Source: a virus. From it: DNA of 64,000 nt. Shown here piece by piece: positions 1 to 62,211 of the stretch. The position numbers and the translations under genes were made by a program. The stretch spans positions 4,973 to 68,972 of the IMG/VR virus record IMGVR_UViG_2915212873_000001; one strand, given 5' to 3'. The notes under the pieces were generated by a model. The model did no database searches. It saw only the letters and a program-made list of their open reading frames with translations, and was not told where the DNA came from. Numbering within the stretch: position 1 is the first letter of the stretch; every line of letters begins with the position of its first letter.

Positions 1-972
1 GGCGCTTCGGTCGCGGATGCCGGACTCGTGCTGGCGCAGCCGTTGGTGGTAGCGGCTGCGGCCGTAGGCGCCGAGTGATATGTGGTTCGGCCAAACGATG
101 TAGCCGAGGAATGGCACGCCGGCGGCCACCGGTGCCAAGCGGATTTTCTTGGGATGCAGGGTCAGCCCGTCGCCGGCCAGCTTTTCGACGATGGCGGTGC
201 TCAACTCCAGCAACTGCGCGCGGGAGGATGCAAGGATGACGATGTCGTCGACGTAGCGGACGTATGCTTTCACGCGCAGGTCTTGCTTGATCCAGTGGTC
301 GAAGTCCGACAGGAAGACGTTCGCGAACAGCTGACTAGACAAATTGCCAATCGGCATTCCCTTATCCCGTGTCCGGCGGTACAGGCCATCAGCCGGAAAT
401 AGGGCATCGAACTGGTCGTCGGTGCGGAACGAGTCGATCAGGCCGACGATCAGGGCGCGCACGTCCTGGTCGCCGATGTAGCGCAGCGCTCGCGCCTTCA
501 GCAGGGAGTGATTCACCGAATAAAAGTACTTGGAGATATCTACCTGCAGCGCCCAACTGTTCGCCGGCGAGCGTGCGAACTGCGCCAAGCGGTCGACCGC
601 AGCATGCGTTCCGCGATTCGGCAGGTTGCCAAAGGTGTCGTGGATGAACCTTGGCTGCCAGATCGGCAGCAGGTACTGGTACAGCATCCAATGGACGATG
701 CGATCCTTCATTGGTGCATCGACCACGTGGCGGAATTTTTTCTCGCGCACGGTGAATGTTTTGTACGGCCCGAAGGTGTATTCGCGGGCGCGCAGCCGGC
801 GTTGGATCTCAACCAGGTGCCGGAGCGCGTCGTCGCCAAAGCGCTGCACGCGGAGGCTGGCTGACTTGCTGCGCTTCGCCTGGCGCCAGCACGCATAGAG
901 GTTGGGCAATGACGTCAGTTCGGCGAACTTCGCCGGCGCCGTGCCGCGTTCCGCTGCGGCACTCGTGAGCAC
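1..972 (-). CDS. DGR reverse transcriptase, 3' end outside the window (start uncertain; GTG at 972 is plausible, frame open up to an ATG at 1200)
   Basis: Manual translation: LPNLYACWRQAKRSK, KFRHVVDAPMKDRIVHW, LQVDISKYFYSV, KGMPIGNLSSQLFANVFL (GxxxSQ, DGR-type), RYVDD at 244-255, FLGY; no stop before base 1, hence absent from the ORF track. Confidence 0.97.
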   Translation of the reverse strand, partial: MLTSAAAERGTAPAKFAELTSLPNLYACWRQAKRSKSASLRVQRFGDDALRHLVEIQRRLRAREYTFGPYKTFTVREKKFRHVVDAPMKDRIVHWMLYQYLLPIWQPRFIHDTFGNLPNRGTHAAVDRLAQFARSPANSWALQVDISKYFYSVNHSLLKARALRYIGDQDVRALIVGLIDSFRTDDQFDALFPADGLYRRTRDKGMPIGNLSSQLFANVFLSDFDHWIKQDLRVKAYVRYVDDIVILASSRAQLLELSTAIVEKLAGDGLTLHPKKIRLAPVAAGVPFLGYIVWPNHISLGAYGRSRYHQRLRQHESGIRDRSA

Positions 973-1094
973 CGCAGCGGTCTTCGGTTTGGCAGATTGC
1001 CGCGCTTTCGGGATGATTATCCCAGGAGAGTCTCGACCAAGAATTGACCTTCCGTCGGCTAGCAGCCGAACGTCTAGGTATGAAATTTTTGGGT

Positions 1095-1209
1095 CAGCGG
1101 AGGCCCACGTTGTCGTTGGCGTTGTCCGGCCAGTCGTTGTCGAGATTGAACACGCCGGCGTTGTCCTCGGAGTTCCAGTAGCCGCCCCGGATGAGGGCAT
1201 TGCCAGCCC
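1095..1209 (-). repeat. DGR template repeat (TR)
   Basis: 115 bp gap-free match to 2191-2305; 24 adenines on the coding strand in 16 codons, 8 of them AAC/AAT; lies between the accessory gene and RT. Confidence 0.98.
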
Positions 1210-1238
1210 CTTCAGAGACTCCCCTTTGTCGAGATGGT

Positions 1239-2096
1239 TCATGCTTTTGCCTTCATGGAGCGCATGATGCCTCCGGTCAGACGCCCAAGCTCGACGGCTA
1301 AGCCAACTCGATGCTCAAACGCAAATTTGAGTTGGCTAAGCCCTGCGGCCTGAGTGAGGTAATGTTTCAGCAAATCAATGTCGGCCGAAATCGAGGTCAG
1401 AACTATCGGTTTGTTTGCGGCTTCGCCGAAGGCGTAGATCGCACGCATGATTCGCCCCATGCAGGCGCGCAGGTTTTCCCCGTACGTGGTGCGCAGGTCG
1501 CGGGGCATCTTGATAATGTCCGCCAGAAGGGCGTCGTCCAGCGCTTGCGCGTGAGACTTCAGTTTGAAGCCTGAGCTGTCGGGATTCGCAAGGATCTGCT
1601 TCGCGGCAGCCTGGCTCAGTTGCCCGCGAGTCCGCAGATCGTCGATCACCTGGTGAACGATATCGGCGCTGACGCTGGCCATCAGATTCGAGGTGCCGGC
1701 GTTTTGTTCGGAAACGTAGATTTTCTGATCCTCGCCCCGGGCGCCAAGCGCCACCACATAAGGCATGCCGAATTCCTGCACCATAGGCCAAAGGCGCTTC
1801 TGGAAATTCTTGATCGGGAAGCCGACACGAATATGCGGCTGGTCCGTCGTGCCAACCAACTGCAGTTTGTAGCTCTTGAGCGTTGCCAGCACGTGCGCGG
1901 TGCGATCGAAGCCGTGCAGGAAGCCGCCAGCCTGGATCAGGATGAGGTGATCGCGATATTGCTGCTCCAGTTTCGCGGCTTGGACGGCACCAGCGTCTGC
2001 TGCGCCCAGCCCGATGTCGACCCCGCGCATTGCGCGAATCGCAAATTGGTCCCGCTCGGCTGCCGTCGGGTTTTGTGACTTGTACTCTTGCATCAT
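1239..2096 (-). CDS. avd: DGR accessory protein: N-terminal MutS-I-like domain fused to a C-terminal Avd four-helix bundle
   Basis: C-terminal ~110 aa (KMPRDLRTTYGENLR...IDLLKHYL...ELGRLTGG) fits Avd and its position before TR; QQYRDHLILIQAGGFLHGFDRTAHVL...RVGFP resembles MutS domain I; start taken at ATG 2096. Confidence 0.8.
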   Translation of the reverse strand: MMQEYKSQNPTAAERDQFAIRAMRGVDIGLGAADAGAVQAAKLEQQYRDHLILIQAGGFLHGFDRTAHVLATLKSYKLQLVGTTDQPHIRVGFPIKNFQKRLWPMVQEFGMPYVVALGARGEDQKIYVSEQNAGTSNLMASVSADIVHQVIDDLRTRGQLSQAAAKQILANPDSSGFKLKSHAQALDDALLADIIKMPRDLRTTYGENLRACMGRIMRAIYAFGEAANKPIVLTSISADIDLLKHYLTQAAGLSQLKFAFEHRVGLAVELGRLTGGIMRSMKAKA

Positions 2097-2124
2097 CGTT
2101 CTCGTTTCAGTTGAGGGGGGGGTA

Positions 2125-2149
2125 CCGACCACCGCTGCGCAGTGATCGG
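2125..2149 (-). promoter_or_regulatory. Candidate DGR target-recognition hairpin downstream of VR
   Basis: CCGACCAC...GTGATCGG imperfect inverted repeat about 25 bp past the target stop codon, where characterised DGRs have a hairpin/cruciform. Confidence 0.5.
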
Positions 2150-2174
2150 AAACCAGTGACCAGTGACCAGAGTC

Positions 2175-2906
2175 CTATTCGGGCTTGGTGCAGCGGAGGC
2201 CCACGTAGGCGACGGCGTAGTCCGGCCAGCCGAGGTCGAGACGGAACACGCCGGCGCAGTCCCCGGAGTCCCAGCAGCCGCCCCGGAGGAGGGCATCGCC
2301 AGCCCAGTCACTGCCAACACGTGGTTGCCAGCCGGCGCCCTTGGTCATGGACGGTGCGACCGCACTGGTGATCGATGGCGAGTCGGCGGTGAAGGCGGAG
2401 GTCACCAGACCTTGCTCGTCGCCCTGTACGTCGTCGAAGATCCAGGTGAATGCGTTGCCGGATGCGTCGCAAATGCGCTCGCCGTTCGACAGGGTGAACC
2501 AACGGTCCTCGTCGGCATCCGATGACACGTAGGTGCCGGCCAGAGCCGATTCGACGGACCATTTCCGCAGACCTTGTTTCAGCTTTCCTTCGCCGACCAC
2601 GCCGCTGGTCCAGTTGGCGGCCACGCTGGCGATATCCAATGCCAGCGACAGGTATTGCGATTCGGTGATCAGCGCCAGGCCGGCGGCCTTGCTGGCGGTT
2701 ACGGCGTCGTGGTAGTTGATCTCGACCAGCGGCGCGCGATCAGCTACGGCCATCAACTCGCCCGCATCGTTGCGCGAGGTCAGGTACTGGCCCACAAGGA
2801 ACGACGGCACGATTCGGCCACCCGGCAGGGTGCGCTCCGGCACACGTACGAAGATCGATTCCGTCGCCTGAATGGCGGTGGCTTCTGTTGCGGTGATTGC
2901 GTTCAT
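2175..2906 (-). CDS. DGR target protein, FGE-sulfatase/C-type lectin fold, with VR at the C-terminus
   Basis: FLVGQY...INYHDA...LITESQY...GNAFTW...ALLRGGCW...AGVF...VGLRC pattern typical of CLec/FGE DGR targets; AGGAG RBS; no signal peptide seen. Confidence 0.92.
   Translation of the reverse strand: MNAITATEATAIQATESIFVRVPERTLPGGRIVPSFLVGQYLTSRNDAGELMAVADRAPLVEINYHDAVTASKAAGLALITESQYLSLALDIASVAANWTSGVVGEGKLKQGLRKWSVESALAGTYVSSDADEDRWFTLSNGERICDASGNAFTWIFDDVQGDEQGLVTSAFTADSPSITSAVAPSMTKGAGWQPRVGSDWAGDALLRGGCWDSGDCAGVFRLDLGWPDYAVAYVGLRCTKPE
2191..2305 (-). repeat. DGR variable repeat (VR)
   Basis: 17 mismatches to TR, all at TR adenines; 13 codons changed. Confidence 0.98.
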
Positions 2907-2951
2907 GAGACTCCTTTAGTTGTTAAAGTTGTACTTCTTGGTGGTGAAATT

Positions 2952-3497
2952 TCAGTGTTGTGGCGCACCGTGGTATGCCATCAGCTGGTGATAGCGGTCC
3001 ATGAAATAGCTGTACGCTTCGACCGGTTGCATTGGCACGATCACCTGCGCCAGCGGCTCGACGCCCGGCCATTCCTGATAGTGATGCGGTGGCATCAGGT
3101 CGCGCTTCTCCGTCGCCAGCAAGATCAGATCGGCAGCTTTGATCGCCGGGTCCAGCGGCAGGGTGATGCCGAAGCGCCCGAGGATCGCGGCCTCAATGGC
3201 CTGCTCCAGCACCTGGTAGTCCGGCAGCAACCGCTTGAGCGGCTTCGGCAAGTCCTTCATCACTGCTTCGGAGCAGTCGTGCAGCAGGCCGACCATGGCC
3301 AGCTCTGGCGGGACGATCAAGCTGACCAGCACCGAGTGCTGAGCCACGCTGTAGAAGCTAAGCGTCTGGCCGTTGAATCGCGCCTCGTTGGCCAGGCCGC
3401 TTGCGATGTCCTCGATGGTGATAATCGAGGTCTCCGGCGACAGGAAATTGAAGAAGTTCCCGGAGCGCAGCAAGATGTCGGGGCGGTGGGCGCTCAT
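2952..3497 (-). CDS. HD-domain phosphohydrolase (YfbR/YfdR-like nucleotidase)
   Basis: [27 protein letters not shown] and LLHDCSEA motifs. Confidence 0.88.
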
Positions 3498-4720
3498 GCT
3501 GCACCGCCTTGCGCCAGCAGCGCACGGTCACCGTTCGACGCCGCTGCACTGACCACGCCGGCGGCCTCCATCGCATTCATCAGATGGGCTGCGCGGTTGT
3601 AGCCGATGCGCAGGTGGCGCTGGAGCAGCGATACAGACGCGCGCCGATTGGTGCGCACCACGGTCACTGCCTGCTGGTAAAGCGGATCGCTGGCGGTGCC
3701 GTCGCCGGGCGGAACTTCGCCGGCCGCGCCGACCACGCGCTGCGCGCGCACCGGCTCGTCGCCCTTAGCAGGTGATGCAGGTGATGCAGGTGCGGCAGCG
3801 TCAGCTTCCGCCGGCGTGCCGTCCGCGCGCGCCTCGCCGCCCAGCGCCTCCACCAGATCACCCAGCAGCTTGGCCAGCTCGCCGGTCATCAGCATGAAGT
3901 CGCCGTCGAAGCGCTCGCCGTCGTTGCGGCTGGTGACTTCCTTCTCTGTCAGAACGTCCAGCGGCTTGACCGACTTGACGGCCAGGCTCTCGTCCAGCAC
4001 GAAGCTGATCTTGCTATCCCAGGTCATGGCCAGCCGCGTGCACTGCTTGCCGTTCTCGATGTGACGGCGCACGTCGGCCGGGTCCAGCGTGTGCTTCTTG
4101 TAGGCCACCTGGGCTTTACTCTCGCCGGTGGCGCGCAGCGTGGCGTCCTGGTCGACTGTGAAGCCGGCCGGTGCTTCGTCGGTTTGCAGCCATTCGGTCA
4201 TCACGCCCACCGGCGAGCGCTGCACGCGCAGGCTTTCCAGCGGCATGCGGTCGACCGCCTTCAGCAGCAGCTTGATGACTTCATCGGCCTTGGCAGGGGA
4301 AGCGGCATCCACTACTAGCCAGCCGTTGACCGGGTCGATCCACGTCCAGGTGTTCGATTCGATCGTGAATGCTCGCGGCAGCAGCTCGTCGGTGACGCGC
4401 TCCTTCAATTCCTTCATCGCCTTCTTGCCGGGCGCGAAGCCTTGCTGCTCTTCCAGTTCGGCGGCGCGCGCCTTCGTCACCTGGTTGATGACGGTGGCCG
4501 GCAGCAGCTTCTTTTCGCCGCGCAGGCGGATCAGCATCTGCTTGTTGACGGTGTGCACCAGGCCTCCATCCTTGCGCGGCGCGTCCCAGCCCTGGCGGAT
4601 CAGCTCGTTGCTGCTGGCCGGCGCGAACGTGTAGCTGGCCAGCTGTTTGGCCAGGTGCTCGGCGGTCATGGTGAATCCCGGAATGCGATAAATTTGAAGG
4701 TTTTTGAAGAACATGCTCAT
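3494..4720 (-). CDS. rdgC: Recombination-associated protein RdgC with a C-terminal FtsK-gamma-like winged helix
   Basis: [10 protein letters not shown] start, [28 protein letters not shown]; C-terminal DPLYQQAV...[21 protein letters not shown]. Confidence 0.92.
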
Positions 4721-5319
4721 TTCCCTAACTTTTCGAATGCGGCTTCAACGCCGTGTTTTTGGATTTGTCGGTTCAGGCGCTCTGCTGTAACGCCGAGCTG
4801 ATCGGCCCAATCTTTGCGGCACATGGTTTTTCCTCTGTGGGTAATTTGATGATTGCTGCGCCGGTTTCGGCATTGCTCCGCGTTCGTCGCCCACTTACAG
4901 TTGTCCGGCCCATAACCTTTGCTGTTGTCGATTCTTTCCAGTGACATGCCAGCCGGACGCTCACCCATGTCAGCCAGGAACACTTCGAAAGAGTCCCATT
5001 CTTTGCATACCGTAATGCCGCGAGCTCCATATCCGGCATAACCCGAAGAGCCCGGCTTGCCGCAGCGCGCCCGCATTGTTTTCCAGATGACATGCGTACT
5101 AGTGCCCGACATGCCATGAGTTGCACGCTCACGCGCCTTGTCTGCTGCATGACAGCCGCAGGACTTCACTTGACCGGATTTCAAATGACTACCCCTAACA
5201 AAGGTCGTTTGCCCGCAATCACATTTGCATGTCCAAACGATTTTCCCGGAGGTGCTTCTTGCCATCTCGCCGACTGCAAGTCGGCCGAATCGTTGGCCCT
5301 CGAGTTTGTCGGCAATCAT
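4717..5319 (-). CDS. HNH-type homing endonuclease-like protein
   Basis: [49 protein letters not shown]. Confidence 0.8.
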
Positions 5320-62176: not shown

Positions 62177-62197
62177 CGATTCCGGCTCGAGGCACCA
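62177..62197 (+). repeat. att site: duplicated tRNA 3' end (CGATTCCGGCTCGAGGCACCA), probably tRNA-Leu
   Basis: T-arm half, acceptor strand and CCA with no 5' tRNA half upstream; between the SOS module and an integrase remnant. Confidence 0.75.
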
Positions 62198-62211
62198 CCC
62201 AATCTACAACG

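What the first reader, a model, noticed from the sequence alone, without database searches (positions are those of the whole stretch)
1..2906. Diversity-generating retroelement with strictly adenine-specific TR/VR differences
Seen: the minus-strand order is target(VR), hairpin, accessory gene, TR, RT. TR 1095-1209 and VR 2191-2305 align without gaps over 115 bp, and all 17 mismatches are at TR adenines (17 of 24; 13 of 16 variable codons). TR reads GNALIRGGYWNSEDNAGVFNLDNDWPDNANDNVGLR and VR reads GDALLRGGCWDSGDCAGVFRLDLGWPDYAVAYVGLR. The RT has GMPIGNLSSQ and YVDD and is missing from the ORF track, so an ORF-based annotation would overlook it. Established: this is the Bordetella phage BPP-1 mtd-avd-TR-brt layout and its A-to-N mutagenic retrohoming signature. 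Inference: the element is or recently was active.
Basis: partly seen in the sequence, partly recalled or inferred. Interest (0 to 1): 0.9.

Follow-up and report, generated by a model that had tools for sequence, protein, structure and literature searches.

The report
Intact prophage DGR with MutS-Avd accessory
This is a complete diversity-generating retroelement in a 67-kb prophage, a known kind of targeted hypermutation system, and its helper protein is an unusual fusion of a MutS mismatch-recognition domain to Avd.

Summary
TR 1095-1209 and VR 2191-2305 (minus strand) align without gaps, and all 17 differences fall on the 24 TR adenines (chance about 4e-15). All 13 changed codons are nonsynonymous.

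The RT is not broken. Its ORF ends 69 nt left of the window edge, and its best solved relative is the Bordetella phage RT.

The target is a 243-aa C-type-lectin/FGE-fold protein. An 11-bp hairpin follows the VR.

The 160 nt after the TR form a structured spacer RNA. Covariation across 23 related loci supports it, and its elements are colinear with the BPP-1 DGR RNA.

So this is a genuine, intact DGR of known mechanism. Three details differ from BPP-1:
- The accessory protein (285 aa) fuses a MutS domain I (Phe-X-His in place of Phe-X-Glu) to Avd. This matches the "MSL" class, but as one polypeptide.
- The RT frame stays open from an ATGA overlap with the accessory stop, through TR and spacer.
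- The cassette sits in the early/recombination arm, not next to tail genes.

Current activity could not be tested, because no sequencing runs were listed.

First-stage notes on this same window (no other DNA) had already flagged the fusion and the stand-alone target.

The parts
1..1242 (-). Reverse transcriptase ORF. It is 436 codons counted from the ATG at 1242 and continues 69 nt left of the window. The RT core runs from about 930 leftwards. The alternative start is GTG at 972.
   Evidence: ORF L001 1432-2742(-) ends with a normal stop. Pfam RVT_1 4e-23, phrog_1423 3e-96, bRT 8ub7_A 5e-32. IGNLSSQ and YVDD present. The frame is open through TR and spacer in 16 of 18 loci.
935..1094 (-). Spacer (Sp) RNA downstream of the TR. 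In order it holds a hairpin next to the TR, the primer strand UUGGUC (1035-1040), the stop-duplex strand (1025-1034), a stem-loop followed by an A-rich motif (GAAAGC in kin, where only part is invariant; GAAAGCG here), a small hairpin, and a long 11-12-bp stem capped by a UNCG-like loop (about 938-975).
   Evidence: Own fold z = -3.7. Across 23 loci 97% of cells are paired and 21 of 45 pairs have compensatory changes, and no shuffle (0 of 500) reached the observed values. No Rfam family matches.
1089..1214 (-). Template repeat (mutagenic core 1095-1209). The 3' end GACCCAA (1089-1095) pairs with the Sp strand UUGGUC.
1215..1224 (-). Upstream strand GGGGAGUCUC of a 10-bp long-range duplex with Sp 1025-1034. 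This is the analogue of the BPP-1 'cPRT Stop' avd:Sp duplex.
   Evidence: The duplex sits at the same position in 22 of 23 loci (126 nt in L016, 127 nt elsewhere). It is 98% paired and 6 of 10 pairs are compensatory.
1239..2096 (-). Accessory gene, 285 aa. MutS-domain-I-like N-terminal domain (about residues 35-130; Phe59-Leu-His61) fused to a C-terminal Avd four-helix bundle (about residues 180-280).
   Evidence: Model pLDDT 76. Foldseek gives Taq MutS 1ewq_A 4e-4 and Avd 8ub8_C/4dwl_D with TMt 0.77-0.82. Pfam bAvd hits 40 of 40 members and MutS_I 22 of 40. HMM alignment to the host MutS. More than 300 clusters of about 284 aa.
2125..2149 (-). GC-rich hairpin 41 nt downstream of the VR. The stem is 11 bp. 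The loop here is GCA, whereas most relatives have a 4-nt G-N-N-A loop.
   Evidence: In 21 loci 92.6% of cells are paired, against 23-54% when the partners are slid.
2185..2310 (-). Variable repeat (diversified core 2191-2305), at the 3' end of the target ORF.
2175..2906 (-). Target (variable protein) gene, 243 aa. A single C-type-lectin/FGE-sulfatase-fold domain. By inspection there is no signal peptide and no extra N-terminal domain.
   Evidence: phrog_9572 3e-9. PF03781 in many homologues. Foldseek gives TaqVP 5vf4 6e-5, FGE and Mtd.
62177..62199 (+). attR, a 23-nt repeat of the 3' end of tRNA-Leu(UAA). The tRNA itself lies about 5.2 kb left of the window, next to the integrase. The prophage is about 67 kb.

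Best explanation
This is a complete diversity-generating retroelement carried in the leftward early/recombination arm of a ~67-kb myovirus-like prophage integrated at tRNA-Leu.

The expected mechanism is as follows. A transcript covering the end of the accessory gene, the TR and the spacer folds so that two duplexes form. The 10 nt just upstream of the TR pair with the spacer (the stop duplex). The TR 3' end GACCCAA pairs with the spacer strand UUGGUC (the template:primer duplex). The RT, held on an Avd-type scaffold, self-primes from the spacer and copies the TR. It misincorporates opposite adenines.

The cDNA then replaces the VR of the 243-aa lectin-fold target. The GC-rich shared 3' end, the VR-specific CA dinucleotide and the downstream hairpin guide this replacement. 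The result is variation in 16 codons of the ligand-binding face.

The accessory protein adds a MutS mismatch-binding domain to each Avd protomer. I infer that this domain binds the mismatch-dense cDNA:VR heteroduplex and shields it from host mismatch repair.

Shown here: the parts, their integrity, the adenine signature and the RNA pairings. Inferred: the priming site, the role of the MutS domain and present-day activity.
For: Adenine signature:
- 17 of 17 differences are at TR adenines, p about 4e-15, and all changed codons are nonsynonymous.
- 0 of 91 non-A core sites differ.
- Family-wide, 663 of 682 TR/VR mismatches in 42 VRs are at adenines.

Protein parts:
- The RT is intact and bRT-like.
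- The accessory has an Avd fold and a MutS-I fold.
- The target has a lectin/FGE fold.

RNA and DNA elements:
- The hairpin after the VR is conserved with covariation.
- The spacer RNA has 21 of 45 compensatory pairs, and the stop duplex has 6 of 10.
- The order of elements is colinear with BPP-1 as described in bioRxiv 10.1101/2023.10.23.563531.
- The TR-only AC dinucleotide lies inside the TR:Sp duplex, which explains why it is fixed.

Context and MMR background:
- The same cassette occurs in 23 loci of Burkholderiales, Rhodocyclales and Lysobacteraceae.
- Host MutS lowers DGR retrohoming 5-10-fold in Bacteroides (bioRxiv 10.1101/2024.11.15.621889).
Against: - There is no direct evidence of current diversification. 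No sequencing runs were listed, and no near-identical prophage exists in the 100 genus genomes searched to compare VRs.
- The hairpin loop here is 3 nt, whereas loop size and sequence were critical in BPP-1 (PMC3240598). However, five relatives with 3-nt loops also carry adenine-specific VRs.
- The Avd and MutS_I hits of this protein are below the curated Pfam/NCBIfam cut-offs.
- The role of the MutS domain is untested.
Confidence: 0.88

Rival explanations
1. The cassette is an evolutionarily recent but now silent DGR. All parts look intact, yet it no longer diversifies, for example because the hairpin has lost one loop nucleotide or because the cassette is not expressed in the lysogen.
For: The hairpin loop is 3 nt (GCA), against the 4-nt G-N-N-A loop of most relatives. 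In BPP-1 both loop size and sequence are critical. No population data could be obtained.
Against: 0 of 91 non-A sites differ between TR and VR. There are no disabling mutations in the RT, the accessory, the stop duplex or the primer duplex. Relatives with 3-nt loops (L004, L007, L011, L015, L016) show the same adenine-specific pattern.
Confidence: 0.25
2. The repeat pair is an ordinary partial gene duplication, and the RT belongs to another retroelement such as a group II intron, a retron or a defence RT.
For: NCBIfam gives sub-threshold hits to group II intron and Drt RT models.
Against: All 17 differences are at adenines of one copy only (4e-15). The best solved relative is bRT. No intron or retron RNA family matches. 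An Avd domain, a lectin-fold target and the DGR-type spacer RNA are all present.
Confidence: 0.01
3. The MutS-like domain does not act on the DNA heteroduplex. Instead it binds the DGR RNA or the RNA:cDNA hybrid as an extra grip for the ribonucleoprotein, for example by wedging Phe59 against flipped-out or unpaired bases.
For: In BPP-1, Avd contacts flipped-out bases of the spacer stem-loop. The catalytic-site Glu of the MutS Phe-X-Glu motif is replaced by a conserved His, so base recognition may differ from MutS.
Against: Host MutS is known to restrict retrohoming, which makes competition at the heteroduplex the simpler role. No data distinguish the two roles.
Confidence: 0.3

Closest known systems
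Bordetella phage BPP-1 DGR (mtd-avd-TR-brt)
   Same: It has the same gene order and adenine-specific TR-to-VR transfer. The RT is the closest solved relative (5e-32). Both have an Avd fold, a C-terminal VR in a C-type-lectin fold and a GC-rich hairpin after the VR. The spacer RNA elements come in the same order: stem-loop, primer strand, stop duplex with the sequence upstream of the TR, stem-loop plus adenosines, then a long stem.
   Different: - The accessory carries an added MutS domain I (285 aa here; the solved Avd chains it matched are 107-122 aa).
- The target is a stand-alone 243-aa lectin domain in the early arm, not a tail-fibre protein with N-terminal domains.
- The stop-duplex strand lies after the accessory stop, not inside avd.
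- The primer and stop duplexes abut with no spacer nucleotides.
- The hairpin is 41 nt from the VR and has a 3-nt loop.
- The RT frame is open through TR and spacer.
MSL (MutS-like) accessory class, DGR Architecture D (Wu et al. 2018, PMC5758913); Msl of Bacteroides and Legionella DGRs
   Same: A small protein with similarity to the MutS mismatch-recognition domain, encoded inside a DGR cassette that also has Avd. The reported size range is 112-283 aa.
   Different: Here MutS-I and Avd are one polypeptide. The papers I could read describe MSL and avd as separate genes, and I could not read the supplementary tables to see whether the 283-aa members are this fusion. By single-sequence search, this N-terminal domain finds only 34 representative clusters and no stand-alone Msl.
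MutS domain I (Taq and E. coli MutS)
   Same: The fold matches (Foldseek probability 1.0, 18-24% identity over about 100-120 residues). The G-x-F motif with the Phe wedge and the G-[VF]-P motif are conserved.
   Different: There are no connector, clamp or ATPase domains. Phe-X-Glu is Phe-X-His, with His at 90% or more across the family.
TaqVP / TvpA / FGE-type DGR variable proteins
   Same: The fold is C-type lectin/FGE-sulfatase, with the VR forming the C-terminal binding face. The TR uses AAY-rich codons.
   Different: The protein is shorter and single-domain, with no lipobox or signal peptide seen. It is carried by a prophage beside RdgC and recombination genes.

Membership tests
Diversity-generating retroelement | RT of the DGR clade with the [LIV]GxxxSQ motif and YxDD | tested here: met
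   IGNLSSQ and YVDD are present. The best PDB relative is bRT at 5e-32. phrog_1423 3e-96. The ORF is intact.
Diversity-generating retroelement | TR/VR pair whose differences are confined to TR adenines | tested here: met
   17 of 17 differences are at A, 0 of 91 at other bases, p about 4e-15.
Diversity-generating retroelement | VR at the 3' end of a target ORF with a C-type-lectin (or Ig) fold | tested here: met
   The VR ends 14 nt before the stop codon. Foldseek matches TaqVP, FGE and Mtd. The VR part of the model is low-confidence.
Diversity-generating retroelement | Avd accessory protein | tested here: met
   Foldseek against Avd gives TMt 0.77-0.82. bAvd hits 40 of 40 family members. This protein's own scores are below the curated cut-offs (19.6 against 40 bits; 24.3 against 80 bits).
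Diversity-generating retroelement | Target-recognition elements: a shared GC-rich 3' end with a VR/TR-specific continuation (IMH/IMH*) and a GC-rich hairpin downstream of the VR | tested here: met
   The 3' dinucleotide is fixed at CA in nearly all VRs and AC in all TRs across the relatives. The 11-bp hairpin is conserved with covariation. Its loop is 3 nt here instead of 4.
Diversity-generating retroelement | cis-acting spacer RNA with a TR:Sp primer duplex and an upstream:Sp stop duplex | tested here: met
   97% of cells are paired and 21 of 45 pairs are compensatory. The primer duplex is invariant, so it is supported only by conservation and position.
Diversity-generating retroelement | Observed VR diversification in a population (mutagenic retrohoming) | not testable with these tools
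   No sequencing runs were listed. No near-identical prophage was found in the 100 genus genomes searched.
MSL accessory class (Wu 2018) | Similarity to the MutS mismatch-recognition domain, encoded within a DGR cassette | tested here: met
   Foldseek matches MutS domain I at 4e-4. Pfam MutS_I hits 22 of 40 members, best 8.6e-5, and this protein scores 16 bits against a 20.6-bit cut-off.
MSL accessory class (Wu 2018) | A separate small gene accompanying a separate avd gene | tested here: not met
   There is a single 285-aa ORF with both domains, and about 284 aa in more than 300 clusters.
MutS mismatch-repair protein | Full domain set (I-V with ATPase) and the Phe-X-Glu motif | tested here: not met
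   Only domain I is present. The motif is Phe59-Leu-His61. The genuine host MutS is elsewhere in the genome.

The most novel reading that the evidence does not exclude
In this DGR lineage two things may differ mechanistically from BPP-1.

First, a MutS mismatch-binding domain with Phe-X-His is built into every Avd protomer. The RT-Avd particle would then carry its own multivalent mismatch binder, which protects the adenine-mutagenised heteroduplex from host mismatch repair or helps install it.

Second, the RT may be translated from an ATG that overlaps the accessory stop, straight through its own template (TR) and spacer RNA. Translation and template use of the same RNA would then be mutually exclusive and coupled.
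Probability: 0.3. Interest if true: 0.65.

Novelty: new member of a known kind. Interest (0 to 1): 0.35.

Why it matters
On its own this is one more DGR, correctly recognised from raw sequence.

It is useful as a clean, complete example of a sizeable proteobacterial lineage, with more than 300 protein clusters. In this lineage the MutS-like accessory function, whose role in DGRs is still unknown, is physically fused to Avd.

That fusion gives a direct handle on how DGRs cope with host mismatch repair, which restricts retrohoming 5-10-fold in Bacteroides. It also offers a family-wide alignment that defines the DGR RNA elements by covariation.

The stand-alone, apparently cytoplasmic lectin-fold target in an early phage operon raises a further question: what does a phage diversify there?

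Tried and rejected
- Sequencing runs for 1-3000 and for the target gene: none listed. The read-level test of VR variation could therefore not be run.
- Near-identity search in the phage collection: only short unrelated hits.
- Search of 100 genomes of the same genus: three carry the cassette, at about 70% identity, too distant for a VR-only comparison.
- Rfam on 1-3000: no family.
- Profile search of the accessory family against PDB sequences: only chance hits. The MutS/Avd assignment needed the fold comparison.
- Whole-region DNA fold of the VR-accessory spacer: not better than shuffles (z = -0.35). Only the local hairpin is significant, and that through conservation.
- RNAalifold also proposed pairing of TR GCU with the AGC of GAAAGC. 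I left it out because it is invariant and crosses the covariation-supported stop duplex.
- The GTG at 2132 as accessory start was rejected. It lies inside the hairpin, and homologues start at the ATG at 2096.
- The supplementary tables of Wu 2018 are not held. I could not check whether this fusion is already in their MSL list.
Full report
**Observation**

On the minus strand, TR 1095-1209 and VR 2191-2305 align without gaps over 115 nt. There are 17 mismatches, and every one sits at a TR adenine (24 A in the TR).

The chance that 17 mismatches all fall on the 24 A sites is 4e-15. TR adenines occupy only codon positions 1 and 2. Of the 16 A-containing codons, 13 are changed. All 13 changes are nonsynonymous and none creates a stop.

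The homology extends to 126 nt, 1089-1214 against 2185-2310. The extra columns hold two non-A differences:
- one at the 5' edge;
- a 3' dinucleotide that is CA in the VR and AC in the TR.

That dinucleotide is the same in nearly every TR and in most VRs of the 23 related loci. It is therefore a boundary feature and not a violation of adenine specificity.

**RT integrity and context**

The window is G000:C11:517547-581546. The RT ORF continues only 69 nt beyond the window edge and ends with a normal stop. Its absence from an ORF track is a window-edge artefact.

The RT matches Pfam RVT_1 and phrog_1423. Its best solved relative is the Bordetella phage bRT at 5e-32.

The cassette lies in a prophage:
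- An integrase and tRNA-Leu(UAA) sit about 5 kb to the left.
- A 23-nt repeat of the tRNA 3' end is at 62177-62199.
- RecE-like, RdgC, HNH, methyltransferase, helicase and tail-sheath genes lie between.

The DGR is in the leftward early/recombination arm. In L011, L012, L021 and L025 it again lies just downstream of an RdgC gene. Only one VR exists in the genome.

**Accessory protein**

The gene at 1239-2096 encodes 285 aa, about twice the size of the solved Avd chains it matched (107-122 aa). Homologues are numerous, with more than 300 clusters at 90% identity, and have constant length of about 284 aa.

A model built on 40 homologues (pLDDT 76) has two domains:
- The N-terminal alpha/beta domain matches MutS domain I. 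The best hit is Taq MutS 1ewq_A at 4e-4 with probability 1.0.
- The C-terminal four-helix bundle matches Avd (8ub8_C, 4dwl_D, TMt 0.77-0.82).

Pfam bAvd hits 40 of 40 members and MutS_I hits 22 of 40, with a best E-value of 8.6e-5. This protein's own scores are below the curated cut-offs.

I aligned the family profile to the host's own MutS. The invariant Phe59 falls on the MutS mismatch-wedge Phe. The near-invariant His61 falls on the MutS Glu, so Phe-X-Glu becomes Phe-X-His.

**What the literature says about MutS-like accessories**

- Wu et al. 2018 (PMC5758913) defined an MSL (MutS-like) accessory class. They found it in 16 DGRs, at 112-283 aa, always together with avd.
- Bacteroides DGRs also encode a separate Msl. 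Deleting host mutS there raises retrohoming 5-10-fold (bioRxiv 10.1101/2024.11.15.621889).

I found no description of the fused form in the texts I could read, and the supplementary tables were not available. A single-sequence search with the N-terminal domain found only 34 representative clusters. Going by their lengths, the longest of these are the fused type.

**Target and hairpin**

The 243-aa target has FGE-sulfatase (PF03781) homologues. Its model matches the DGR variable protein TaqVP, formylglycine-generating enzymes and Mtd. It is a single lectin-fold domain. By inspection it has no signal peptide.

An 11-bp GC-rich hairpin lies at 2125-2149, 41 nt after the VR. It is conserved in 21 loci. 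There 92.6% of cells are paired, against 23-54% when the partners are slid, and compensatory changes occur.

Most relatives have a 4-nt G-N-N-A loop. The window has a 3-nt loop (GCA), as do five relatives that still show adenine-specific VRs. In BPP-1 both loop size and sequence are critical (PMC3240598), so this remains a small caveat.

**DGR RNA**

The 160 nt after the TR are conserved and structured. I extended the alignment to include the TR and its upstream flank. A named structure on that alignment gave the following:
- 97% of cells are paired.
- 21 of 45 pairs have compensatory changes.
- No shuffle (0 of 500) reached the observed values.

The key elements are:
- A 10-bp duplex forms between 1215-1224, just upstream of the TR and 14 nt after the accessory stop codon, and spacer 1025-1034. 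It sits at the same position in 22 of 23 loci (one nt off in L016), and 6 of its 10 pairs are compensatory.
- An invariant duplex abuts it. The TR 3' end GACC(C)AA (1089-1095) pairs with spacer UUGGUC (1035-1040).
- A stem-loop followed by an A-rich motif (GAAAGC in kin, only partly invariant; GAAAGCG in the window), a small hairpin, and a long stem with a UNCG-like loop complete the spacer.

This order is the same as in the BPP-1 ribonucleoprotein: Avd-binding stem-loop, primer strand, cPRT-Stop duplex, stem-loop plus A-minor adenosines, then the bRT-binding stem (bioRxiv 10.1101/2023.10.23.563531).

The TR-specific AC dinucleotide lies inside the primer duplex. The VR version would not pair there. 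By analogy with BPP-1, cDNA synthesis would start upstream of it. That would explain why the dinucleotide is never transferred to the VR. This is inference.

**Family evidence**

23 loci from Burkholderiales, Rhodocyclales and Lysobacteraceae share the order target(s), MutS-Avd, TR, RT, often with two to four target genes. Over 42 VRs, 663 of 682 TR/VR mismatches are at adenines. The machinery has therefore clearly operated across this lineage.

**Noticed: the RT frame**

In 22 of 23 loci an ATG overlaps the accessory stop codon as ATGA. In 16 of 18 loci without large insertions:
- the RT frame is open from that ATG through TR and spacer;
- the spacer length varies from 193 to 214 nt but is always 1 mod 3;
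- the RT frame has no stop, while each other frame has one to four.

The two exceptions are the Undibacterium arcticum copies, whose accessory gene is also frameshifted. This argues that the RT is translated through its own template and spacer, or at least that ribosomes are delivered that way. Loci with an insertion between the spacer and the RT (L017, L020) give the RT its own ATG, so the extension is probably not essential for catalysis.

**Activity**

There are no non-A differences at 91 sites, and every part is intact. Together these point to retrohoming that is recent on an evolutionary scale. No reads could be laid, and no near-identical prophage was found. Present-day activity is therefore unproven.

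**Verdict**

This is a genuine, intact DGR of the known mechanism, correctly read by the first stage. Relative to BPP-1 the differences are:
- the fused MutS-I/Avd accessory;
- the stand-alone target in the early arm;
- the RT frame running through TR and spacer.

Separate first-stage notes on this same window had already flagged the fusion and the stand-alone target. I tested the first and partly tested the second.

Noticed in passing
window 935-1242 (-), and L005-L026: The RT reading frame is open from an ATG that overlaps the accessory stop (ATGA) through TR and spacer in 16 of 18 loci. Spacer lengths of 193-214 nt are always 1 mod 3. The RT frame has 0 stops against 1-4 in each other frame. 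The RT may therefore be translated through its own template.
   Followed up: partly
L003 6745-6829 and window 62177-62199: The prophage is bounded by tRNA-Leu(UAA) next to the integrase and by a 23-nt direct repeat of the tRNA 3' end. It is about 67 kb, so nearly the whole window is prophage.
   Followed up: partly
L004 6212-6751; L023 7132-7656: In two related loci an HNH endonuclease gene, similar to window 4717-5319, sits where the RT should be, and only a C-terminal RT remnant is left. These appear to be decayed cassettes.
   Followed up: no
L025 and L026 (Undibacterium arcticum, two copies): Both copies have a frameshifted accessory gene and a spacer length that breaks the RT frame. They are either pseudogenes or indel errors in a long-read assembly.
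   Followed up: no
L017, L020, L010: Insertions separate TR and spacer from the RT, which then has its own ATG. In L020 the ORF that starts at the ATGA runs from the spacer into a Cys/His-rich sequence.
   Followed up: no
window 3494-4720 (-): An RdgC domain is fused to a C-terminal FtsK-gamma (KOPS-binding) winged helix. RdgC also lies upstream of the DGR targets in L011, L012, L021 and L025.
   Followed up: no
window 2150-2180 (-): Between the VR and the hairpin there are short tandem CTGGTCAC-like repeats, conserved as CTGG-rich sequence in relatives. Their function is unknown.
   Followed up: no
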